The notes beneath the pieces are model-generated. The model saw nothing but the letters and a program-made list of their open reading frames with translations, searched no databases and had not been told where the DNA came from. A stretch of DNA of 64,000 nt. Source: Candidatus Poribacteria bacterium. Lineage in GTDB: Bacteria > Poribacteria > WGA-4E > WGA-3G. The DNA lies in contig OZ244048.1 in NCBI GenBank assembly GCA_965215265.1, positions 736,001 through 800,000 on the forward strand. Direction: 5' to 3'. Position 1 is the stretch's first letter. The number at the start of each line of letters is the position of its first letter. The position numbers were made by a program, and so were the translations under genes. Shown in pieces: positions 33,703 through 62,889 of the stretch.

Positions 33703-34719
33703 CTAGAAGTTCTCTTGTTGGATCCCTGCTTCTGAGACGCGCGTGGTTCTCGGGTCTAAAGTCTCATCAACACTATAAAATTGATTGCTTTGGGTACCTA
33801 TAGCAAGTTCCGTGACATTGGGGCCAACCTGCTTGTTCCCACTGATAAAATTGTCCCGGAGCCTTCCACCATCATAGACTGCCCATCCGACGTTCATTGT
33901 GATATTGTTAGAAGTAATCTCCGGTGAAGCAGTGGAATAACAGACGATGGCGTGTTGGTAATTTGCACGGATCTCGTTGTAAAAGATACGCGGGCGGGAA
34001 TCATCCTCGCAAATGATGCCGTACTCGTTAGCTGCGAAAGCGTTGTGTTCGATTTGTGGTGCGGACGAACCGCGAAATTGCATCCCTGTTCCGTTCCTAT
34101 TGAACTCGTTATTGGTAATAGTCGGATTACTATTTTCACACAGTATGCCTATATTATTGATGCTGAAGAGACACCTCTCAATCTGAACTGTATCCGCGCC
34201 GATCGTAATACCGGCAGTAGCATGTTGGATTCGACAATACGTTAGACGGCTGTTCGGGCTCTGCGGGTCGATCTGAATGCCGGCCCAATCACCTGCCTTT
34301 GGGGGTACCGCGGTTGTCGTTAAAGTTGCTTCTGCCATTGCTGCGGGGACGGTTGCTGATTCTGTTTCAGTTTCCGGAAGAGGCTCCTGTTTTCCTAAGG
34401 AACCGAAGACTATCATCAAGTCCGGAGATCCTTCTGCGTAGAGTTCACCTTGCACAAGAAGTTGACTCGGGGCCTCCAACGGCTCAAAACCGACGATAGT
34501 TCCGGAACGGATAGTCAACGTTATACCTTGTGGCACAATTACGGTGCCGGTAATGTACACTCGACCGTCCCATACTTCATTTTCTGTCAATTCCCCAGAT
34601 TTCTCCACGATAGCTGAACTTCCAGCCATAGAATCAAAATTGAACGCGCTGCCTTGACATCCGAAATGGAAACAGGTTAGGGCAAAGGTCAAGATGATTT
34701 TTACTGTTGCTCTTTTCAT
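33703..34719 (-). CDS. Lipoprotein with right-handed parallel beta-helix repeats (NosD/pectate lyase-like)
   Basis: Signal ending FGC; LTIRSGT.V.F, GDWAGI, repeated P.I..N.F..N..GI. Confidence 0.8.
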   Translation of the reverse strand: MKRATVKIILTFALTCFHFGCQGSAFNFDSMAGSSAIVEKSGELTENEVWDGRVYITGTVIVPQGITLTIRSGTIVGFEPLEAPSQLLVQGELYAEGSPDLMIVFGSLGKQEPLPETETESATVPAAMAEATLTTTAVPPKAGDWAGIQIDPQSPNSRLTYCRIQHATAGITIGADTVQIERCLFSINNIGILCENSNPTITNNEFNRNGTGMQFRGSSAPQIEHNAFAANEYGIICEDDSRPRIFYNEIRANYQHAIVCYSTASPEITSNNITMNVGWAVYDGGRLRDNFISGNKQVGPNVTELAIGTQSNQFYSVDETLDPRTTRVSEAGIQQENF

Positions 34720-52923: not shown

Positions 52924-54948
52924 TTAGTCTGAATTCAAACTCGGTGGCAACGTCTTCAGCCATGCGAGGTTAAACCGATAGTGTTGTCGGCTACTAATCA
53001 GATGAATTATACCGTTTTTACCTTGGCAGCCTGCGAGATAGCCCCCGGGCTCAGCACTGCTAATATCCATCGTAAAAGGTCGCCCATCCATCGTTTCGAT
53101 TTCGTGCCCAGCACTATCATCACTTATCAGGCGAACGTGTGTCCAAGTGTCCCCATCATCGTAGGAGAGTGCCCCAAATAGGCCCGTGACCGGACGTTCC
53201 TGACCAGAGGCATCCATAATCGGCATCGCTGCCGGATCTTGCCGTTCCCCAGTAAAAGATGCAAGAAATATCGGTCCCTCCTTGAGTCTGAGTAGCACGC
53301 AACGTTGACCACCCGAAAGGGGTGGAAACGACCCGGCACTATAAGACCAAGTTCTGCCTCCATCTGTAGAAATGCTTTTAGGCATCTGCCCGTTAATTGT
53401 ATCGCCACGCCCATAAGCCATGAGTCTACCATCTGTGAGCTCAACGACAGCGGCGTGAATCCCGGCGATCCATCCACCGGATTTTCCATCCGCGAACTCA
53501 GGGATAGGTTGAGCTGCTCCAGGGTCGTGCCAAGTTTCTCCGTCGTCCTCACTGAGCCAGATTGCGGTTCCACCGTTGCCTCCACTCACTGCATCGCAGG
53601 CAAGGAGTATAGAGCCGTCTTGCCGGCGGAAAACAGACGTAATGGGCATCTGTCGGAGTTGATGCTCCGGCGAGATAAACTGGGGACGCGTCCACGTCGC
53701 ACCATTATCATCGGAATAACGCATGACTAATGCCAAGGGGCCCCATGTCGCAGCGGCGGAGAGCCCGTTGAAGTGATAAATTCGCCCGTTCTCATTGCAC
53801 CAGAGGGCAGTGGCGTGATTATTTCTATCCGGTGCTCCCCAGAAAGGTTTCGCCGCTTCCCATTCGTTTTGTCCGTAACGCAATCGACTCGCCGCCACGG
53901 TTAATTCTCGACCGCGTTCAGTCACGCACGAGTACCATGCAGCGAAAAGGTCTCCGTTTAGGCACTCAACAATTGACGGAACATGGTTATGTGCTGAAAA
54001 CAGCGGCCCGTTTGAACCTTCCTGAATCTTTACATAAGGGATTGGATGTGCAAAATAAGGAGTATCAATAGCAGGCGATGTCGTAGCTGCTTGTTTTACT
54101 GTGCGCCCCCATAACGCCACTTTCGGGACTGGCAGCGGCCGAGTATCAGGCAGGGCAGCGCAAACGACACGGAACCCGATGTACCAGTGTTTATCTTCAG
54201 GCACAGCACCCATCCGATTGGCAGAGCGCAAATAACAGAGCAAAGTTGAATGACTGCCCCCACGTGTCACACGGTAGAGCCCATCTGCTCTGCCAACCGG
54301 GTCTTCCTGCAGATACGGTTCGTACGGGCCATACCAATCGTGGCACCACTCTTCTACATTGCCGTGCATATCGTATAACCCCCAGGCATTCGGTGGAGTT
54401 TGCCCAACATGTAGGGGCACCACCTCTTTTACGCCACGGCTCCGTCCTGCATCAGGGTACCAACTCTCTCCTACATTCTTATGAAAGATATCAGGGAGTG
54501 TGTCTCCGGTATGAAAATGCGTCGTTGTGCCTGCGCGACATGCGTATTCCCATTCAGCTTCGGTTGGCAGCCGATACGGGATGCCTTCGCGTTCGGAGAG
54601 CCATTCACAGAAGCGAGCAGCATCGTGCCAACTCACGAAAACAACTGCCTCACTGTCTGCCACTGAAAAATTAAGCTTCCCGCGCAGGCAGCGATGGTCT
54701 GACTCGAATTCTTCATACTGTGCATTCGTTACCTGAAAAGCTCCCATGTAGAACGGCGTGCTGAGCGTTACCTCATGCACCGGACGTTCGTCCCAGTCGC
54801 CTTCACGCAAGTACGCCTTACCCGCTGTCAATTCATCCGATAGTTGGACATCATCCGAACCCATTAGAAAGTTACCGGGTTCAATTCTAACCAACTGCAT
54901 CCCGAGTGAATTGGTATGGTGAGCACCTTTGATTGGAAGTTTTTGCAT
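52924..54948 (-). CDS. SUMF1/FGE-sulfatase domain fused to a BNR/sialidase-like beta-propeller
   Basis: RLPTEAEWEYACRAG, GLYDMHGNV.EW, GFRV; four Asp-boxes (SDDNGATW, SEDDGETW, STDGGRTW, SYDDGDTW). Confidence 0.88.
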   Translation of the reverse strand: MQKLPIKGAHHTNSLGMQLVRIEPGNFLMGSDDVQLSDELTAGKAYLREGDWDERPVHEVTLSTPFYMGAFQVTNAQYEEFESDHRCLRGKLNFSVADSEAVVFVSWHDAARFCEWLSEREGIPYRLPTEAEWEYACRAGTTTHFHTGDTLPDIFHKNVGESWYPDAGRSRGVKEVVPLHVGQTPPNAWGLYDMHGNVEEWCHDWYGPYEPYLQEDPVGRADGLYRVTRGGSHSTLLCYLRSANRMGAVPEDKHWYIGFRVVCAALPDTRPLPVPKVALWGRTVKQAATTSPAIDTPYFAHPIPYVKIQEGSNGPLFSAHNHVPSIVECLNGDLFAAWYSCVTERGRELTVAASRLRYGQNEWEAAKPFWGAPDRNNHATALWCNENGRIYHFNGLSAAATWGPLALVMRYSDDNGATWTRPQFISPEHQLRQMPITSVFRRQDGSILLACDAVSGGNGGTAIWLSEDDGETWHDPGAAQPIPEFADGKSGGWIAGIHAAVVELTDGRLMAYGRGDTINGQMPKSISTDGGRTWSYSAGSFPPLSGGQRCVLLRLKEGPIFLASFTGERQDPAAMPIMDASGQERPVTGLFGALSYDDGDTWTHVRLISDDSAGHEIETMDGRPFTMDISSAEPGGYLAGCQGKNGIIHLISSRQHYRFNLAWLKTLPPSLNSD

Positions 54949-55239
54949 AGCCTAACCTATTTTTTGTCTATTGGAGTACCATAAAGGCGGCTGCTTTGAT
55001 AACACCTATACAAATCTCGCCAGAGCCGCTTTAGGCAGTGTTAATCACTTTTTCAGAATTGATGCTATTATACCAATTAACGCTGCATTTGTCAAAAAAT
55101 TGTCGGTTACTAGCAATTTGGGATGCTACTAGGGAAATTGTGCTGCTATAACTAGGGAAAATTTGCCTCTTGTGAACGAATTTACCACATCGATAATTGA
55201 ATTGACTGAAACTTTTTTTCACAGTGGCATTTGCCAAAT

Positions 55240-55254
55240 TGGCACAGAAATTGC
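55240..55254 (+). promoter_or_regulatory. sigma-54 -24/-12 promoter (distal)
   Basis: TGGCAC-AGAAA-TTGC, exact consensus spacing. Confidence 0.75.
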
Positions 55255-55400
55255 CAAGATAGTTGAAGAAACCAATTGCTATCAATGATAACAAGAGCAG
55301 GCACTTAACGCTACCCAGTAAAAAATTCCCTTCTGCCCCTGAAATTAGGGAAAAGGGTGCTAATGAACGAGGTGAGGGAAGGGTTCTCCTTTTTCTAAAT

Positions 55401-55416
55401 TGGCATAGAAATTGCT
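55401..55416 (+). promoter_or_regulatory. sigma-54 -24/-12 promoter (proximal)
   Basis: TGGCAT-AGAAA-TTGCT, about 80 nt before the ftsZ-like ATG. Confidence 0.8.
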
Positions 55417-55494
55417 ACTGTTACTGAGCGGACTAAACAATAGGAGGATAAAGTTGCATCACGTTTGTAAACGAAAACTAAAAGGAGTGAAAAC

Positions 55495-56421
55495 ATGCGA
55501 ACCAGAATGAAGGCCATCGGTGTAGGAAGCACGGGTGGAAACGCAGTCAAATACATGGCTCAAGCCGGATTAACAGGCGTTGATTTTTACGCGGTTGACA
55601 CACATGCACAATCCTTAGAGGCTTGCCTCAGTGTCACACGAATCCAGATTGGAATTAACACTACTAATGGGTTTAGTGCCGGTAATAATCCTGCGGTAGG
55701 CCGACAAGCGGCTGAAGAAAGTCGGGAACGGCTTGAAACCGTTGTCTCGGACGCAGATTTGATTTTCGTTATCGCCTATATAGGCGGAGGTACTGGGACT
55801 GGCGCAGCACCTGTGATTGCAACCTTGGCTCAAGCACGTGGGGCAGCCTTTACGATTGGTGTGGTAACGCTTCCTTTCAAATTTGAAGGAGAACAGCAAA
55901 TTGAACAAGCCGAAAAAGGATTGCAAAACCTCCTCGAGGTAGCCGATTCAGTCATCGTTGTACCGAACCAACAATTGATTATGGAGGGTAACCTATCAAG
56001 GCGAGAGGCATTCGGACGCAGCAACGAGATATTACGTCGGGGTGTTCAGTGTATCGCTGATATAATTGTAGACTCAGGAGAAATTAATGTCAATTTTGCC
56101 GATGTCAAATATATCATGCAGGTCCCTGGAAGCGCAATCATAGGGGTAGCCAGTGCAACCGGCAAAAACCGCGCGAAAATCGCAGCAGAATCTGCCGTTT
56201 CTTCACTATCCCTCGACGGGACGAATCTTGCAAGTGCATCTGGGCTGATAGTACGCATTGAGGCTCCGCCGGATTTCATAATGTCCGAGTTGGATCAGAC
56301 AATGCAGATTATTCAAAAAACATCAGCAGATGCTCAGATTATCTTTGGACTGTGCTACAGAGATGAATTGGAAATTGGGGATGAGGTTCACATGACTATT
56401 ATTGCAACCGGTTTGATGTAA
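55495..56421 (+). CDS. ftsZ: Divergent FtsZ paralog (GTPase core only)
   Basis: GGGTGTG tubulin signature, PFKFEG, INVNFADV, IIFG, ends IIATGLM; no linker or C-terminal peptide; not in a dcw cluster. Confidence 0.85.
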   Translation: MRTRMKAIGVGSTGGNAVKYMAQAGLTGVDFYAVDTHAQSLEACLSVTRIQIGINTTNGFSAGNNPAVGRQAAEESRERLETVVSDADLIFVIAYIGGGTGTGAAPVIATLAQARGAAFTIGVVTLPFKFEGEQQIEQAEKGLQNLLEVADSVIVVPNQQLIMEGNLSRREAFGRSNEILRRGVQCIADIIVDSGEINVNFADVKYIMQVPGSAIIGVASATGKNRAKIAAESAVSSLSLDGTNLASASGLIVRIEAPPDFIMSELDQTMQIIQKTSADAQIIFGLCYRDELEIGDEVHMTIIATGLM

Positions 56422-56733
56422 CAACCGTAGACTTGCGACAGTGCAATTTAGTTTTAGCTCTTTTCGTGGATTTGCCGAGGAGGTCCCTCTTACAGCAGAG
56501 TCTTGCGATTTAGCGTGCTTTCTTAGGGGTTAACTAAATGGCCTTGGATTCGCGACGCTTGACATATTAAAAAAAACTGTTATCCTATACACCTGAAGGT
56601 GAACGTTACCAAGCGTTAGGGAAACCTCTACCTGTAACGCCAGAATAACGTTGCCCAGACATAGATGCCACCCGTGTTCACTCAGAAGCAGGAGAAATTA
56701 TCAAGCACCGTATAAACCAAAAAGAACCTGAGG

Positions 56734-57867
56734 ATGTTCATGCTAAACCGACCGGACTCAATCAGCAATCAGAAAAGTAGTACTACAAAGAATCCGAGAG
56801 ACTTGTTGCGTGGGAATTACGATGCCATCATTGGTAGTAGTCCGCGGCTCCTTGAGGTTCTCACACAAATTGAACGGTTTACAAAGACACCTTTAGAGGT
56901 AATCATTTCCGGGGAGACAGGAACTGGCAAGGAATTAGCAGCCCGTGCTTTGCACGCAAACAGTATGCGTTCAAAGGAAGCGATGATTGTAGTCAACTGT
57001 GCGGCGATTCCGGATGAACTGTTAGAAAGTCACCTATTCGGCCATGAAGCCGGAGCATTTACCGACGCGAAGCAGCAGCGCATCGGCAAGTTTGAACAAG
57101 CAGACAACGGAACGTTGTTTCTGGACGAAATCGCGGAACTACCGTTGTCACTTCAACCAAAGCTGCTACGGGCTCTTGAAACCGGAGAAATTGAGCGAGT
57201 GGGCGGTACAGCTTCCATTTCGGTAAATGTCCGGATTGTGGCAGCCACCAATCGCGTACTCGACTTAGCTATCAAAGAAGGAGGCTTTCGCAGAGACCTC
57301 TATCATCGATTAGATGGGTGCTCTATCCATCTACCACCTCTGCGCGAACGACTGGAAGACATCCCTGAGTTGGTGGAACACTTTGTGAAAAAGGCTCAAT
57401 TAGAAACGTTTTTTATTCAGCTGCCGCCTCTGCGTGAACGACTCTCAGCCGGAGATACTGGGCAAAAACCTCATTCAAACTCCACAAAACAGGAAGGCAA
57501 GATTGCTTGGCAGACGTTAGAACTCCTTAAAGGTTACGCATGGCCAGGGAATGTCCGAGAACTAAAAAAGGTAATGCTGTATGCGCTCATTCTTGCTGAG
57601 GGGAAAGTCATCTTACCAGCACATTTACCCAAAAAACTTCATTCAGCAGACGGGCAGCTCAGCAACAGTGGAAAAGCCATTGAACCTGTGCAAAAACAAC
57701 AAGCGGTATCTTTTCCGATTGGACTAACGTTGAAAGAGATTGAACAGAGATATATTCAGGAGACTTTAGCACAGATGGATGGAAATCGGACGCGCACAGC
57801 GAAGACTTTGGGCATTAGTCCAAAGACTTTGCGCAGCAAATTAAAAACGTACTCCGGGTCAAGGTAA
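56734..57867 (+). CDS. Sigma-54-dependent enhancer-binding protein without N-terminal sensory domain
   Basis: GETGTGKE, LFGHE.GAFTDA, LFLDEI, WPGNVREL, Fis-type HTH. Confidence 0.93.
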   Translation: MFMLNRPDSISNQKSSTTKNPRDLLRGNYDAIIGSSPRLLEVLTQIERFTKTPLEVIISGETGTGKELAARALHANSMRSKEAMIVVNCAAIPDELLESHLFGHEAGAFTDAKQQRIGKFEQADNGTLFLDEIAELPLSLQPKLLRALETGEIERVGGTASISVNVRIVAATNRVLDLAIKEGGFRRDLYHRLDGCSIHLPPLRERLEDIPELVEHFVKKAQLETFFIQLPPLRERLSAGDTGQKPHSNSTKQEGKIAWQTLELLKGYAWPGNVRELKKVMLYALILAEGKVILPAHLPKKLHSADGQLSNSGKAIEPVQKQQAVSFPIGLTLKEIEQRYIQETLAQMDGNRTRTAKTLGISPKTLRSKLKTYSGSR

Positions 57868-58219
57868 TCACTCACCGCGTTAGAGTAAACCTAAAAATAT
57901 CCGGGCCTTTTCTTTAATTTATGTTAGAATCGTTATCTCATGAGATAAAAAAACAGAACGCAATAGAAATGTTGGTGTTTTCAAAGCATAGATTGTGTAT
58001 GGGTTCCTTGTAGAAAAGCAAAGCCGTCTTGTGTAAAAAGACATTGAGACAGTTTTGCTGCATACGAACCTGGAGCGCTACACGGTACGGGTTCTAGTAA
58101 TATGAGTTCTTGTAGTAGTAGCTGCCACCGGAATTTACGGTGCAAGTATGTGCCATGGAAGTTCCCGCGGGGAGCGTCTTACTGTATCTGCAAGAGCAAC
58201 TAAAAGCGGTGTCGGGGGG

Positions 58220-58657
58220 CTAATTTCCACAAGCGCTGCAACCGCGCCCATCACAATTATTGCAATCATCGTCGTCTGGCGGATCACACGTGTCGCAACC
58301 GGATCCATCACAATCGTAGCAGTTATCCTCTGGACCATCAAGAACATCCCAGAGAGCAACACCTGCACCCACGATACCTGCGCCCGCTGCAATGCCGCCT
58401 GCTAGAGGTACCCATGCAGGTGCTGTGGCGGTAGCGGCTGCAGCACCACCGGCCCAGGCGATACCACCGGCCACAGCTGCTAAGATTCCGGCCCCCGCTG
58501 CAATTTCCTCTCGAGGATCTCCGTCGTCTCCATGGCGATCGCTGCAGATCTCGGGAGTGACGGACACCAAGATACAGAAAGTTACCGTTACCGTCGCGAT
58601 GAAGTTGAGCAACGATACCTTTTTCTTCCACGTTGGATGTATGGATTTGTTAGACAT
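58220..58657 (-). CDS. Secreted small protein: signal peptide, Gly/Ala zipper helices, acidic Cys-rich tail
   Basis: GAGG RBS; ordered architecture; two CxxCDGxGCxxC repeats. Confidence 0.7.
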   Translation of the reverse strand: MSNKSIHPTWKKKVSLLNFIATVTVTFCILVSVTPEICSDRHGDDGDPREEIAAGAGILAAVAGGIAWAGGAAAATATAPAWVPLAGGIAAGAGIVGAGVALWDVLDGPEDNCYDCDGSGCDTCDPPDDDDCNNCDGRGCSACGN

Positions 58658-59685: not shown

Positions 59686-60579
59686 TTACTGCTTAAGTCG
59701 TGCCCAAATAGTGGCGAGCTTTCCTTCTGCTTCGACTGCAAGCGCAATGCCGGTCTTTGCGCCATTTTTACCCGTCAGATGATGCACATTCCCCGAGGCA
59801 TCTAAGAAGGTCGCCGTGCCAGCAGGCTCATCAAAATGCCACAATGCCACCGTTTTTGCGTCATTCTTGAACTGGCCGTCTGGCATAAAACCCTTTTTCT
59901 CAACATCATAACGTGCAACCCTCGAGATGCGGACCTCATCAATATATCCCGTGAAGGAACCCCACAATACTTTGGATGGCGGACGACCAGGCACCTCAAT
60001 TATCTTTCCAAACCCTCCAAGCATGAAGTCCTTTGGAAGCAAAGCACGAGGATCAAGATCATGTCCGAGGGGGTGATCTTGTTGTATTGTCTTTACGAAA
60101 TCATTGACAATCATTGTTGTCTGAGGTCCATTCGACTGATAAGCGATGTGGTGCCATTGGTTCGGCTCCAGCGGGATCGGGAAAGATATTCTCCGACCGA
60201 ACATTCCCTCAATATAGGCACTCATTAGCAAGATAAAGTCTCCCTTCGGAGGCTCTATATTATGCCCATTAGCCAGATTATTTAGCAGCGGTTGATATTC
60301 ATCGTTCACGAGAGTCAGACGCACCTGTTGATGGAGTATCGTCAATAACGTGTCCTTGTTGTCGGGCGGTGTGGTGGGATATATCCAGGCTTCAACGGTG
60401 AACTTCTTCGTGCCGTTCGGTAAAATCCTACCGAAGGTTTCAAAATCTAAGACGGCGTGATCGTCAACGCCGTCAAGGACTAAATAGTTTCCACCAGCCG
60501 GTGAAGAGGGCGGGAGTGCTTTGGCACTCAGCGGAAGGAATATAAGTAAGAGCCATGCGAGGCGTTGCCGGTATCTCAT
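59686..60579 (-). CDS. Secreted LamG-like protein
   Basis: Signal peptide, LDGVDD, FTVEAWIYP, WHHIA, GYIDEVRIS, ALWHFDE; tail AVEAEGKLATIWARLK. Confidence 0.88.
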   Translation of the reverse strand: MRYRQRLAWLLLIFLPLSAKALPPSSPAGGNYLVLDGVDDHAVLDFETFGRILPNGTKKFTVEAWIYPTTPPDNKDTLLTILHQQVRLTLVNDEYQPLLNNLANGHNIEPPKGDFILLMSAYIEGMFGRRISFPIPLEPNQWHHIAYQSNGPQTTMIVNDFVKTIQQDHPLGHDLDPRALLPKDFMLGGFGKIIEVPGRPPSKVLWGSFTGYIDEVRISRVARYDVEKKGFMPDGQFKNDAKTVALWHFDEPAGTATFLDASGNVHHLTGKNGAKTGIALAVEAEGKLATIWARLKQ

Positions 60580-60733: not shown

Positions 60734-61039
60734 TTAAACGTCTAAAATTGTGCAATGCCAGAGAGATTCAATCGTGGCATAATCTGTCACGTCTCGCTGA
60801 AGATGCACATGGGTCTCACGCCACAACTTCGCCGTGCTTTTCAAGAGTTGTTTCAACTGATGTAGGTAGTCTGCCAAAGATGTCGCCTGAATCTGAGCCG
60901 CGAGGTGTTTTATCTCTCTAATATGTTGTAACCGTTTCGCCTCGTTCCACCGTTGATAAGCAAACGGACCAATAACAACAACCGTCAGAATCAGCGTCAG
61001 CAATATGTACTTTTTCACAAAAAACTTCAGTCTCCACAA
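60734..61039 (-). CDS. Hypothetical protein with N-terminal TM helix (possibly a gene fragment)
   Basis: KKYILLTLILTVVVIGPFAY membrane anchor; same strand as neighbours; no recognisable family. Confidence 0.35.
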   Translation of the reverse strand: MWRLKFFVKKYILLTLILTVVVIGPFAYQRWNEAKRLQHIREIKHLAAQIQATSLADYLHQLKQLLKSTAKLWRETHVHLQRDVTDYATIESLWHCTILDV

Positions 61040-61302
61040 TTTTAGGCAATTGTCAGCCTTTTTTTTAGGCGAGTTTCGGGTTTTGAATTTTCCCTAGTGG
61101 GTAAACAGTTGCTTGTTCAACCTGCCTCAACAGCACAAAATGGGGTTCAATGCGACAGATTTTTCGTTCGTCAGATTCGACTTCAACTTTCAGAGCCACG
61201 CCAGATGTTTTTGGATATCAGTGAGCATTTTCATATTACGGCTTCAGTTGTCCCCACGGGGTTGTGAGTTTTCCTCTGATTCGACTGCCAGTAGGTTGAA
61301 TG

Positions 61303-62046: not shown

Positions 62047-62889
62047 TCATTGTGTTTTGACTGTGAGCGGGATGCCGATCTTTGCGCCATTTTTACCCGC
62101 CAGATGGTGAGCATTCCCCGATGCATCCGAGAATATCCGCGTTCCGCCCGGCTCATCAAAATGCCACAACGCCACTGTCTTTGCGTCATTCTTGAACTTG
62201 CTGTGCGGCGTGAAACCAGTTTTATCGACATCGTAACGAGGAATCGTTGAGATGCGAACCTCATCAATATATCCCGCAAAAGCACCCCAGAAGTGGTTGT
62301 GATGCTTGGAACCAATTTTCTCTCCAAAGCCCCCAAGCACAAAATCCTTTGGACGCTCTAGACTTGACAGATCGTGTGCAATCGTTGTAGTTCGGCGTGA
62401 ACTGGCTGTCCAATTGTTAACGATTGTTGTTATTTGATGCCCATTCGCTTGGATAGCGATGTGATACCATTGTTTCAGCGGAAATGCTCTCGGGTGGTAG
62501 CCTGTCTCAGAGACCTCTCCACTGTGCGTAACATGCGCTTGAATTCTTAGGAATAAATCTCCTTTCTGCCACTCGATATCCTTTCTTATGCCCTCCCATC
62601 CAACGTGAACGTCGTTGACAACATCCATCCGCACCTGTTGGCTGAGTATCATTGCATGTATCTCATCGGCAGGCGGTGTGGTGGGATATATCCACGCTTC
62701 AACAGTAAATTCGTCCGTGCCTTCGGGTAAAAGTGTCCCGAAGGTTTCAAAATCTAGAACGGCGTAGTCATCAACTCCGTCAAGGGCTAAATAGTTTCCA
62801 CCAGCCGGTGAAGGGGGTGGGAGTGCTTTAGTACTCAGCGGCATGAAAACAAGCAAAAAGAGATAGGTAAGGATGTGTCGGTGTCTCAT
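62047..62889 (-). CDS. Secreted LamG-like protein (paralog of 59686-60579, lacks the KLxxxW tail)
   Basis: Near-identical N- and C-terminal blocks to the paralog; ends IPLTVKTQ. Confidence 0.88.
   Translation of the reverse strand: MRHRHILTYLFLLVFMPLSTKALPPPSPAGGNYLALDGVDDYAVLDFETFGTLLPEGTDEFTVEAWIYPTTPPADEIHAMILSQQVRMDVVNDVHVGWEGIRKDIEWQKGDLFLRIQAHVTHSGEVSETGYHPRAFPLKQWYHIAIQANGHQITTIVNNWTASSRRTTTIAHDLSSLERPKDFVLGGFGEKIGSKHHNHFWGAFAGYIDEVRISTIPRYDVDKTGFTPHSKFKNDAKTVALWHFDEPGGTRIFSDASGNAHHLAGKNGAKIGIPLTVKTQ

What the first reader, a model, noticed from the sequence alone, without database searches (positions are those of the whole stretch)
55240..57867. Sigma-54-driven degenerate FtsZ paralog paired with a sensor-less enhancer-binding protein
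Seen: two near-identical consensus -24/-12 promoters (AAATTGGCAYAGAAATTGC) precede a 308-aa FtsZ outside any dcw cluster. It keeps GGGTGTG but has GVGSTGGN (for GVGGGGGN), DTH (for NTD), GFSAG (for GLGAG), no Arg after FEG, T7 loop NVNFAD (for NxDFAD), and no linker or FtsA/SepF-binding tail. The next gene is a bEBP lacking an input domain. Known: the T7 Asp residues are needed for GTP hydrolysis, and sensor-less bEBPs (PspF, HrpR/S) are regulated by partner proteins in trans. Inference: an inducible module where a GTPase-impaired FtsZ acts as a division inhibitor or filament cap, a non-division cytoskeleton, or the bEBP's regulator. I know of no described system like this.
Basis: partly seen in the sequence, partly recalled or inferred. 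Interest (0 to 1): 0.85.

Follow-up and report, generated by a model that had tools for sequence, protein, structure and literature searches.

The report
Sigma-54-controlled tail-less FtsZ paralog in Poribacteria
A sponge-associated-type bacterium (Candidatus Poribacteria) carries, besides its normal cell-division gene ftsZ, a shortened and catalytically remodelled second copy that sits behind two sigma-54 promoters next to its probable activator, and its relatives in sister genomes are fused to DNA-replication proteins, which hints at an undescribed link between an FtsZ-derived protein, DNA replication and cell division.

Summary
Window 55495-56421 encodes a 308-aa FtsZ core with no linker or tail. 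Five of nine catalytic or interface residues that are invariant in 28 canonical Poribacteria FtsZ are changed. Two TGGCAY-N5-TTGC sites lie upstream, and a 377-aa enhancer-binding protein with no sensor domain lies downstream. The genome also holds a canonical tailed ftsZ, ftsA and rpoN.

The new result is the gene's ancestry. FtsZ2 belongs to a fast-evolving FtsZ paralog clade confined to one Poribacteria family. Other members are fused to an ECF-sigma-like domain, to a truncated DnaE, or, in the sister genus, to a full DnaN.

The sister-genus DnaN-FtsZ genes share the neighbouring genes and the downstream bEBP ortholog. A sigma-54 promoter was found upstream in the two loci whose upstream DNA is held. 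Their dN/dS is about 0.23, against about 0.04 for canonical ftsZ.

The module is absent from the only same-genus genome. One related strain carries a frameshifted bEBP.

Best reading: an inducible, tail-less, hydrolysis- and assembly-impaired FtsZ that modulates the Z-ring. Rivals are decay and a replisome-linked role. Function is untested.

The parts
55128..55166 (+). Two direct copies of ACTAGGGAAA(A)TT, 23 nt apart, about 90-110 nt upstream of promoter P1. Candidate enhancer (UAS) for the bEBP.
   Evidence: repeat D3. TAGGGAAAW occurs 5 times in the window and 3 of them are here; 0 of 100 shuffles reached 5. The motif was chosen after looking at this region. A CTAGGGACAAAAA element sits at a similar distance in G002. 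Function is inferred.
55240..55254 (+). Sigma-54-type -24/-12 element P1 (TGGCAC-N5-TTGC), 255 nt before the FtsZ2 start.
   Evidence: Orthologous promoters in G002 and G007.
55341..55354 (+). Third TAGGGAAAA element, about 55 nt upstream of P2.
   Evidence: (repeat D2).
55401..55415 (+). Sigma-54-type -24/-12 element P2 (TGGCAT-N5-TTGC), 94 nt before the FtsZ2 start.
55495..56421 (+). ftsZ2: 308-aa FtsZ core (GTPase domain plus FtsZ_C) with no linker or tail. In S. aureus numbering it carries N44D, D46H, G70S, R143Q and D210N. D213, GGGTGTG and N166 are kept.
56559..56586 (+). Sigma-70-like promoter (TTGACA-16-TATCCT, 10 of 12) ahead of the bEBP gene. No terminator-like site was found between ftsZ2 and the bEBP.
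   Evidence: consensus scan only.
56734..57867 (+). Sensor-less bEBP: AAA+ sigma-54 interaction domain with GAFTDA, a lid domain carrying a roughly 30-aa insertion that repeats LPPLRERL, and HTH_8.
55067..55095 (-). Perfect sigma-70 promoter (TTGACA-17-TATAAT with TG) for the divergent FGE-sulfatase/BNR gene (52924-54948). It bounds the regulatory region.

Best explanation
ftsZ2 is a vertically inherited member of an FtsZ paralog clade (here called FtsZ-p) that arose within one family of Candidatus Poribacteria. In this genome it is a bare GTPase-plus-C-domain core.

Shown:
- It lies behind two sigma-54-type promoters with upstream repeat elements.
- It is followed by a sensor-less bEBP that has a sigma-70-like promoter match of its own.
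- The bEBP linkage and gene neighbourhood recur in all three sister-genus loci. The sigma-54 promoter recurs in the two of them whose upstream DNA is held. There the paralog is under moderate purifying selection.
- FtsZ2 keeps the nucleotide-binding signature and the second T7 aspartate.
- It has lost the membrane-tether tail. It carries H, Q and N at three positions where substitutions abolish assembly of S. aureus FtsZ.

Inferred:
- The bEBP, controlled in trans by an unknown signal, switches on ftsZ2 through sigma-54.
- The product cannot build or turn over filaments by itself. Being 59% identical to FtsZ1, it binds FtsZ1 subunits or filament ends.
- It then acts as a tail-less, non-hydrolysing poison or tuner of the Z-ring, that is, a conditional division brake made from FtsZ itself.
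For: Identity and placement:
- Pfam and NCBIfam matches.
- FtsZ2 is 59% identical to FtsZ1.
- No protein closer than 61% was found among 5.8 billion; all top hits are Poribacteria FtsZ.
- In the ML tree of 47 FtsZ domains, 18 paralogs form one clade (support 96/97). FtsZ2 is sister to the three DnaN-FtsZ genes (95/83).

Conserved module:
- The best bEBP hits (60-61% identity, full length) occur only in G002, G007 and G010, of 40 relatives searched. Each lies directly downstream of the FtsZ paralog.
- The same divergent FGE-sulfatase/BNR gene is present where the locus reaches it (G002, G007), and PhyH is seen in G007.
- TGGCAC-N5-TTGC lies 111 and 140 nt upstream in G002 and G007.

Selection:
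- dN/dS is 0.23-0.25 for the FtsZ and DnaN halves of the fusions, against 0.03-0.05 for canonical ftsZ of the same genomes.
- FtsZ2 keeps 90 of 118 canonical-invariant columns but only 92 of 187 variable ones.

bEBP integrity:
- GAFTDA and the lid insertion are shared by all 4 orthologs.
- 3 of the genome's 8 bEBPs have (F/Y)TDA.

Residues:
- Canonical FtsZ are invariant at all nine positions in 28 of 28 sequences.
- Among paralogs, D213 is kept in 18 of 18, D46 in 16 of 18, R143 as R or K in 16 of 18, and D210 in 10 of 18.
- FtsZ2 has H, Q and N at D46, R143 and D210.
- SaFtsZ D46A, R143Q and D210N suppress assembly (PMC8936486, passages).

Precedent: the tail-less A. tumefaciens FtsZ1 blocks division when expressed continuously, and it needs canonical FtsZ to reach mid-cell (PMC13732431, abstract and sections 3 and 14).
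Against: No expression, binding or activity data exist. No RNA run held the locus.

The same-genus genome G001 (95% complete) has one FtsZ and no bEBP ortholog. Synteny breaks right after the FGE gene, so the module lies in a roughly 10-kb variable segment.

In the strain of run X9 a 1-nt insertion in an A6 run frameshifts the bEBP before its HTH. FtsZ2 there shows 4 non-synonymous changes (including G183C in helix H7) against 2 synonymous ones. The pN/pS is about 0.6, from tiny counts.

FtsZ2 alone in the clade has both D46H and R143Q. It has 6 private changes at otherwise conserved sites.

If both longitudinal faces are damaged, FtsZ2 may not bind FtsZ1 at all.

The fusion partners of its relatives (DnaN, DnaE) point to DNA replication rather than to division.

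GAFTDA departs from the canonical GAFTGA.
Confidence: 0.45

Rival explanations
1. Relic in decay. The module was functional in the common ancestor of genera g1 and g2. In this lineage it is being lost, and ftsZ2 and the bEBP are still open by chance or under only weak selection.
For: - The module is absent from same-genus G001, and its segment is replaced by unrelated DNA.
- The bEBP is frameshifted in the X9 strain, and FtsZ2 there has 4 non-synonymous changes against 2 synonymous.
- FtsZ2 uniquely combines D46H and R143Q, and has 6 private changes at conserved sites.
- A remnant of the ECF-sigma-like partner gene with an internal stop lies elsewhere in the genome.
Against: - Both ORFs are intact, and FtsZ2 has a good RBS.
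- Two promoter copies match the -24/-12 core pattern TGGCAY-N5-TTGC exactly.
- The X5 strain keeps everything open, with 7 differences in 2.9 kb.
- Conservation in FtsZ2 tracks canonical conservation: 0.76 at invariant columns against 0.49 at variable ones.
- Its branch (0.53) is no longer than that of its selected sister group (0.59 plus about 0.1).
Confidence: 0.25
2. Replisome- or nucleoid-linked role rather than a division role. FtsZ-p proteins work with DNA polymerase III components. FtsZ2 does in trans what its relatives do as fusions, for example as a GTP-dependent scaffold or switch acting on DnaN or DnaE.
For: - The FtsZ-p domain is fused to a truncated DnaE in genera g3, g5 and g6 (in g4 only the first residues of the PHP domain remain), and to a full DnaN in g2.
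- The DnaN half of the g2 fusion groups with g2's own dnaN (SH-aLRT 100). That fusion is therefore a separate, later event.
- ECF-sigma-like-DnaN fusions also exist.
- At least 37 clusters of sigma-FtsZ(-DnaE) proteins were listed.
- The genome has two tandem dnaN copies.
Against: This rests on guilt by fusion only. FtsZ2 itself is unfused, and no replication gene is nearby. The sigma-FtsZ-DnaE loci have no sigma-54 promoter or bEBP, so the regulation is not shared.
Confidence: 0.2
3. Feedback regulator of the bEBP. FtsZ2, the product of the sigma-54 operon, binds the sensor-less bEBP and holds it inactive, as PspA does with PspF.
For: The gene arrangement, a sensor-less bEBP beside the sigma-54-driven gene, is conserved across two genera. 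The bEBP orthologs share a roughly 30-aa lid insertion absent from the nearby paralog. This could be a partner-binding site.
Against: No FtsZ-family protein is known to me to regulate an AAA+ activator (recalled; no search was aimed at this). In g2 the same domain is welded to a sliding clamp.
Confidence: 0.07

Closest known systems
Truncated FtsZ paralogs of Hyphomicrobiales (Agrobacterium tumefaciens FtsZ1); PMC13732431 and, as cited there, Howell et al. 2019
   Same: A second FtsZ consisting of the GTPase core without the C-terminal linker and tail. It is encoded away from the canonical gene, is kept beside an essential full-length FtsZ, and is proposed to tune or inhibit division by joining FtsZ polymers.
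   Different: The duplication is independent: FtsZ2 nests inside one Poribacteria family. [quoted passage not shown] Neither 'sigma' nor 'fusion'/'fused' occurs in that paper's main text.
PspF/PspA and HrpRS/HrpV-type sensor-less bEBP modules (recalled)
   Same: A bEBP made only of the AAA+ domain and an HTH, next to the sigma-54-driven gene or genes it presumably activates. Control must come in trans.
   Different: The target gene is an FtsZ paralog. The sigma-54 contact motif reads GAFTDA. The lid domain carries a conserved insertion. The best NCBIfam matches are generic; PspF scores 268.6 bits against a cut-off of 443.55. No partner is known.
Protein inhibitors of FtsZ assembly such as SulA and MciZ, and T7-loop mutants of FtsZ (recalled; SaFtsZ D210N structure 7OJA was the top PDB hit)
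   Same: The proposed action is to occupy an FtsZ longitudinal face without supporting GTP hydrolysis or elongation. FtsZ2 naturally carries the D210N state of the engineered S. aureus mutant.
   Different: FtsZ2 is a whole FtsZ paralog, not a small inhibitor. It is expressed from sigma-54 promoters rather than from an SOS or sporulation promoter. The action is inferred, not shown.
FtsZ-like families FtsZl-1/FtsZl-2 (Makarova and Koonin 2010, PMC2875224; seen in a search listing only) and the magnetosome FtsZm (recalled)
   Same: Non-canonical FtsZ-family proteins with presumed non-division or accessory roles.
   Different: FtsZ2 is far closer to true FtsZ (288 bits on the ftsZ equivalog model) and is of recent, lineage-specific origin.

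Membership tests
Canonical cell-division FtsZ (NCBIfam TIGR00065 equivalog) | Tubulin/FtsZ GTPase domain plus FtsZ C-terminal domain, with the GGGTGTG signature | tested here: met
   PF00091 1.3e-37 and PF12327 3.7e-17. GGGTGTG is present.
Canonical cell-division FtsZ (NCBIfam TIGR00065 equivalog) | Score at or above the curated equivalog cut-off (295.2 bits) | tested here: not met
   288.4 bits and 293.8 bits in the genome scan. The canonical copy scores 397 bits.
Canonical cell-division FtsZ (NCBIfam TIGR00065 equivalog) | Invariant catalytic and longitudinal-interface residues (S. aureus N44, D46, Q48, G70, G72, R143, N208, D210, D213) | tested here: not met
   All nine are invariant in 28 of 28 canonical Poribacteria FtsZ. 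FtsZ2 has D, H, Q, S, G, Q, N, N, D, so 5 of 9 are changed.
Canonical cell-division FtsZ (NCBIfam TIGR00065 equivalog) | C-terminal linker and conserved C-terminal peptide that binds FtsA, ZipA or SepF | tested here: not met
   FtsZ2 ends at the position aligned with FtsZ1 residue 319 of 427. FtsZ1 has the tail.
Canonical cell-division FtsZ (NCBIfam TIGR00065 equivalog) | GTP-dependent polymerisation and GTPase activity | not testable with these tools
   Needs purified protein.
Truncated FtsZ paralogs (Hyphomicrobiales FtsZ1 type) | GTPase core only, beside a full-length ftsZ elsewhere in the genome | tested here: met
Truncated FtsZ paralogs (Hyphomicrobiales FtsZ1 type) | Descent from the alphaproteobacterial duplications | tested here: not met
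   FtsZ2 branches inside Poribacteria family f1. All nearest database hits are Poribacteria FtsZ.
Truncated FtsZ paralogs (Hyphomicrobiales FtsZ1 type) | Strict conservation of the GTP pocket and GTPase residues | tested here: not met
   set against section 14 of PMC13732431.
Poribacteria FtsZ-p clade (defined here) | Placement in the paralog clade, separate from the canonical FtsZ of the same genomes | tested here: met
   The 18-row clade has support 96/97. FtsZ2 plus the g2 fusions group at 95/83.
Poribacteria FtsZ-p clade (defined here) | Fusion to an ECF-sigma-like domain, DnaE or DnaN | tested here: not met
   The open frame is only 316 aa. No DnaN or sigma remnant lies upstream; all tblastn E-values exceed 0.2.
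Sigma-54 / bEBP regulatory module | -24 GG / -12 GC promoter with correct spacing upstream of the target gene, and rpoN in the genome | tested here: met
   This is sequence evidence only.
Sigma-54 / bEBP regulatory module | bEBP with Walker A and B motifs, a GAFTGA loop and a DNA-binding HTH | tested here: inconclusive
   PF00158 7.2e-67 and HTH_8 1.1e-13. GETGTGKE and LFLDEI are present. The loop reads GAFTDA, which is conserved in the 4 orthologs and found in 3 of the genome's 8 bEBPs. Whether that variant contacts sigma-54 is unknown.
Sigma-54 / bEBP regulatory module | Transcription depends on sigma-54 and on this bEBP | not testable with these tools
   No RNA run held the locus.

The most novel reading that the evidence does not exclude
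FtsZ-p is a new class of FtsZ-derived device that couples the chromosome or replisome to division. It would be a catalytically remodelled FtsZ subunit that antagonises or templates FtsZ1. In most genomes it is tethered to DNA-bound machinery: a sliding clamp, Pol III alpha, or a sigma-like domain that binds RNA polymerase or DNA. The window's copy would be the free form, released on demand by a sigma-54/bEBP switch. That would make it a SulA-like brake built from FtsZ itself.
Probability: 0.2. Interest if true: 0.85.

Novelty: new variant of a known kind. Interest (0 to 1): 0.62.

Why it matters
Accessory FtsZ copies are only beginning to be understood as tuners of division. This one adds three features I did not find in print:
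- dedicated sigma-54/bEBP control;
- natural substitutions at positions that experiments show are essential for assembly;
- membership in a clade whose other members are fused to the beta clamp, to Pol III alpha and to an ECF-sigma-like domain.

Fusions to two different replisome parts in separate lineages are a strong hint of a physical link between an FtsZ-derived protein and DNA replication. How bacteria couple replication to division is a long-standing question. These natural fusions give directly testable constructs.

The window's own copy is the simplest member and may be on its way out. Its value is mainly as the entry point to the family.

Tried and rejected
- Co-fold of the bEBP (alignment A1) with FtsZ2 (alignment A2): no verdict. 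The median score was 0.25, under the mark of 0.32, and controls were not run. This is no evidence either way.
- Expression: no RNA holder was listed for window 54900-57900. All four runs laid were contigs.
- Runs X10 and X11 covered parts of the bEBP and the repeat element but gave no cover over 55102-56616. No contig bridged that stretch, so nothing follows.
- Remnant of a lost DnaN or sigma domain upstream of ftsZ2: none. All tblastn E-values exceeded 0.2. The DnaN tree then showed that the g2 fusion is a later gain.
- Looser sigma-54 pattern (up to 2 mismatches): 36 matches against 34.8 expected, so it is uninformative. The near-match at 33802-33817 lies inside a coding region.
- A GG-N9-GC element after the TAGGGAAAA at 61088 has the wrong spacing for sigma-54.
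- Rfam scan of 54900-58300: no match at E up to 1.
- PADLOC: nothing for FtsZ2, the DnaN-FtsZ or the sigma-FtsZ-DnaE. The bEBP gave only generic RtcR/PspF-type AAA+ matches.
- Search of 1.84 billion representatives with the DnaN-FtsZ protein: one other DnaN+FtsZ cluster (P0241). The four other two-stretch hits scanned (P0242, P0250, P0251, P0262) are tandem FtsZ-FtsZ proteins, not clamp fusions.
- Context of the sigma-FtsZ(N-domain) locus: four DUF5694 genes and an ankyrin gene, which is uninformative.
- Min system as a possible gap that FtsZ2 might fill: minD is present and a minC-like gene scores just under its cut-off, so there is no gap.
- Literature: searches found no paper on Poribacteria FtsZ paralogs, on sigma-54 control of an ftsZ paralog, or on FtsZ fused to DnaN, DnaE or sigma. 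One search failed on term syntax and was re-sent.
- Supplements are closed. Supplementary Fig. 2 of PMC13732431 (HMM logos) and S3 Table of PMC8936486 (GTPase rates) may bear on the residue comparison and were not seen.
Full report
WHAT IS THERE

Window 54949-55494 is a 546-bp spacer between two divergent genes.
- On the minus strand lies an FGE-sulfatase/BNR gene (52924-54948) with a perfect sigma-70 promoter at 55095-55067.
- On the plus strand lies a 308-aa ORF (55495-56421) with an AAGGAG-type ribosome-binding site.

The spacer holds two matches to TGGCAY-N5-TTGC, at 55240 and 55401. Both point at the ORF and sit inside a 25-nt direct repeat that is 88% identical. They are the only two matches in the window. 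The count alone is unremarkable (10 of 100 shuffles reach 2). However, the whole 4.83-Mb genome has only 63 matches on both strands. About 0.004 per strand would therefore be expected in this spacer (my arithmetic).

Many of the 63 genome-wide matches share the extended form ATTGGCAY-N5-TTGCW, which the two sites also fit.

Three copies of (AC)TAGGGAAA(A) lie 55-110 nt upstream of the two sites. I propose them as the enhancer. The motif was picked after looking at the region, so its statistics are biased.

THE TWO PROTEINS

The ORF matches Pfam Tubulin and FtsZ_C. It scores 288.4 bits on the ftsZ equivalog model, just under the 295.2 cut-off.

The protein stops at the end of the FtsZ C-domain. 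The canonical copy runs on for 108 more residues and ends in a DWDMPAFLRVQKK-type peptide.

The next gene (56734-57867) is a 377-aa enhancer-binding protein. It consists of the sigma-54 interaction domain (from aa 32), a lid domain and HTH_8, with no sensor domain. A sigma-70-like promoter precedes it, and no terminator-like site separates it from ftsZ2.

Its sigma-54 contact loop reads GAFTDA, and its lid carries an insertion that repeats LPPLRERL. Both looked like lesions at first. Both are shared by all four orthologs, and 3 of the genome's 8 bEBPs have (F/Y)TDA. They are therefore lineage traits, not damage.

GENOME BACKGROUND

The genome is a single 4.83-Mb contig, 95% complete. It has:
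- a canonical ftsZ (397 bits, 427 aa), not next to ftsA;
- rpoN;
- minD and a minC-like gene;
- one dnaE and two tandem dnaN copies.

Named database hits place the organism in Candidatus Poribacteria.

WHERE FtsZ2 COMES FROM

No protein closer than 61% identity was found among 5.8 billion. All top hits are canonical Poribacteria FtsZ.

In 40 related genomes:
- 23 of the 24 other members of the same family have two or more FtsZ matches. The exception is the only same-genus genome, G001.
- 15 of 16 genomes from the other three families have one match.

The extra copies are mostly parts of long ORFs (Pfam; representatives of each class scanned):
- ECF-sigma (regions 2 and 4)-FtsZ, about 550-600 aa;
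- ECF-sigma-FtsZ-DnaE (PHP, polymerase and finger domains, without the C-terminal part), 1340-1490 aa;
- ECF-sigma-FtsZ N-domain only;
- in genus g2, a complete DnaN joined by about six residues to FtsZ, 693-706 aa where the ORF is complete.

An ML tree of 47 FtsZ domains gives these results:
- All 18 paralogs fall in one clade (support 96/97) inside the family.
- FtsZ2 is sister to the three DnaN-FtsZ genes (95/83).
- The paralog subtree repeats the genus pairings of the canonical subtree.
- Paralog branches are several times longer than canonical ones.

This pattern fits a single old duplication followed by vertical descent.

THE LINKAGE IS CONSERVED

The only full-length, 60-61% identical matches to the bEBP among the 40 relatives are in G002, G007 and G010. 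Each lies immediately downstream of the DnaN-FtsZ gene on the same strand. The divergent FGE-sulfatase/BNR gene is present in G002 and G007, and the PhyH gene is seen in G007, as in the window.

G002 and G007 carry TGGCAC-N5-TTGC 111 and 140 nt before the start codon. The G010 contig ends inside the ORF, so its upstream region cannot be assessed. A second sigma-54 site follows the bEBP in all three.

The sigma-FtsZ(-DnaE) genes sit in a different conserved neighbourhood, without a sigma-54 site.

FUSION HISTORY

No trace of DnaN or sigma lies upstream of ftsZ2. In a quick tree, the DnaN half of the g2 fusion groups with g2's own dnaN (SH-aLRT 100). The clamp was therefore added in g2 after the split, unless gene conversion misleads the tree. 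FtsZ2 may show the older, unfused state of this locus.

Elsewhere in the genome there is a sigma-region-2 remnant with an internal stop. G002 has a free-standing ortholog of that sigma.

ECF-sigma-DnaN fusions also exist. Among 1.84 billion representatives, only one other DnaN+FtsZ cluster was found.

SELECTION

dN/dS results:
- 0.03-0.05 for canonical ftsZ within g1 and g2;
- 0.23-0.25 for the FtsZ half of the g2 fusions;
- 0.235 for the DnaN half;
- FtsZ2 against its g2 ortholog has dN 0.375 with saturated dS.

FtsZ2 keeps 90 of 118 columns that are invariant in canonical FtsZ, but only 92 of 187 variable columns. It has six private changes at sites that nearly all other paralogs keep, a number similar to the most divergent paralogs.

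Over most of its history, then, the gene was under purifying selection, about five-fold relaxed compared with canonical ftsZ.

THE ACTIVE SITE

Using the alignment to S. aureus FtsZ, I scored nine residues that Ruiz et al. 2022 describe as key for association or hydrolysis (PMC8936486, passages read).

| Residue (S. aureus) | Canonical (28) | Paralogs (18) keeping it |
|---|---|---|
| D213 | 28 | 18 |
| D46 | 28 | 16 |
| R143 (R or K) | 28 | 16 |
| D210 | 28 | 10 |
| G72 | 28 | 5 |
| N44 | 28 | 5 |
| Q48 | 28 | 1 |

The T4 signature is also kept in 18 of 18 paralogs. All nine residues are invariant in the 28 canonical sequences.

FtsZ2 reads N44D, D46H, G70S, R143Q and D210N. It is the only paralog with both D46H and R143Q. 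In S. aureus FtsZ, D46A, R143Q and D210N each suppress assembly. The engineered D210N protein (7OJA) was the top PDB hit.

The invariant D213 and nucleotide signature suggest that head-to-tail contact and GTP binding still matter in the clade. The rest of the hydrolysis 'crosstalk' region has been remodelled.

SIGNS OF LOSS

- G001 lacks both genes. Its synteny with the window runs through the FGE gene, stops, and resumes about 10 kb further on, with 5 kb of unrelated DNA in between.
- A contig from run X5 covers 54994-57900 with 7 differences and keeps both frames open.
- A contig from run X9 covers 55557-57900 with 18 differences plus one extra A in an A6 run at 57630. That insertion ends the bEBP at residue 316, before its HTH.
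- In X9, FtsZ2 has 4 non-synonymous changes (G165D, R181H, G183C, T243M) and 2 synonymous ones. The pN/pS is about 0.6 by my arithmetic. The counts are too small to test.

HOW IT MOST LIKELY WORKS

Shown:
- the anatomy of the locus;
- the conserved linkage;
- the ancestry;
- the relaxed but real constraint in orthologs;
- the residue states.

Inferred:
- The bEBP, made from its own promoter and controlled in trans, activates sigma-54 transcription of ftsZ2.
- The product binds GTP but cannot assemble or hydrolyse on its own.
- Lacking a tether, it joins or caps FtsZ1 and damps Z-ring assembly.

The nearest experimental precedent is A. tumefaciens FtsZ1. It is a tail-less paralog that needs the canonical FtsZ to localise and blocks division when expressed continuously (PMC13732431, abstract and sections 3 and 14). 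Those paralogs keep the GTP pocket strictly, and this one does not.

I put this reading at 0.45, decay at 0.25, a replisome-linked role at 0.20 and a PspA-like feedback role at 0.07.

NOVELTY

For the window itself, this is a new variant of a known kind: an accessory, truncated FtsZ. Its unusual features are the sigma-54/bEBP control and the remodelled catalytic residues.

The surrounding family deserves its own follow-up. It comprises FtsZ-p fused to DnaN, DnaE and an ECF-sigma-like domain, plus sigma-DnaN. I found nothing on it in four literature searches.

Noticed in passing
L043:3058-7167(-), L044:4832-9289(+), L058, L059, L060, L061 (genomes G012, G006, G014, G022, G003, G008): Single ORFs of 1340-1490 aa combine an ECF-sigma-like domain (regions 2 and 4), a full FtsZ core and a DnaE lacking its C-terminal part. 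They lie in a conserved neighbourhood: an unnamed 361-aa ORF, an SDR-like ORF, a TatD-like ORF and a 370-aa membrane protein (named by eye, not scanned). These genomes also keep a normal 1180-aa dnaE. Shorter sigma-FtsZ genes (for example L040, L041) end in the first residues of a PHP domain, as if the DnaE part had been cut off.
   Followed up: partly
P0246 (576 aa), P0332 (469 aa); G012:C1:1435026-1436114 (L076): An ECF-sigma-like domain is also fused N-terminally to a full DnaN. In G012 this gene lies next to a sigma-FtsZ(N-domain only) gene. The same sigma-like module is thus attached to FtsZ-p, to FtsZ-p plus DnaE, and to DnaN.
   Followed up: partly
L037:13066-15186(-), L038:10926-13007(-), L039:1738-3615(-): DnaN-FtsZ fusion genes of genus g2. 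All three beta-clamp domains run directly, through about 6 residues, into the FtsZ core. dN/dS is about 0.23 for both halves. Only one further cluster of this architecture was found among 1.84 billion representatives.
   Followed up: yes
window 54960-55047: A roughly 88-bp repeat with about 25 copies across the genome, REP- or MITE-like. It lies between the FGE-sulfatase/BNR start codon and its sigma-70 promoter. Many metagenome contigs break or branch here.
   Followed up: partly
window 57630 (bEBP codon about 299), run X9: A related strain has A7 instead of A6. This frameshifts the bEBP before its HTH. It was seen in one contig at depth 26 and has not been confirmed in raw reads.
   Followed up: partly
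window 59686-60579(-), 62047-62889(-), 61088-61096(-): Two paralogous ORFs with signal-peptide-like N-termini lie downstream of the bEBP. The first was scanned and matches Laminin_G_3; the second was not scanned. A fourth ACTAGGGAAAAT element lies about 50 nt upstream of the small ORF 60734-61039, which precedes the first of them. In g2 the gene after the bEBP has its own sigma-54 promoter. The bEBP may therefore control more than ftsZ2.
   Followed up: partly
G000:C1:2762696-2764970 (outside the window); G001:C1:2707224-2709474: Two full-length dnaN genes lie in tandem in both genomes of this genus. In G000 the two copies group together in the DnaN tree; in G001 their pairing is unresolved.
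   Followed up: partly
G000:C1:4330790-4331071 (outside the window): A remnant of the ECF-sigma-like partner gene. It is 52% identical to residues 10-101 of the sigma part of G004's sigma-FtsZ and has an internal TAG. G002 keeps a free-standing 194-aa ortholog.
   Followed up: partly
window 56734-57867, residues about 218-252: The bEBP lid domain carries a roughly 30-aa insertion that repeats the preceding LPPLRERL motif. The insertion is conserved in the four orthologs and absent from the neighbouring bEBP paralog of g2.
   Followed up: partly
window 58220-58657(-): A 145-aa ORF with one hydrophobic segment, a Gly/Ala-rich stretch and a Cys/Asp-rich C-terminus. It has no Pfam or PADLOC match.
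   Followed up: no
P0242, P0250, P0251, P0262: Proteins of 731-840 aa from other lineages that contain two complete FtsZ cores in tandem.
   Followed up: no
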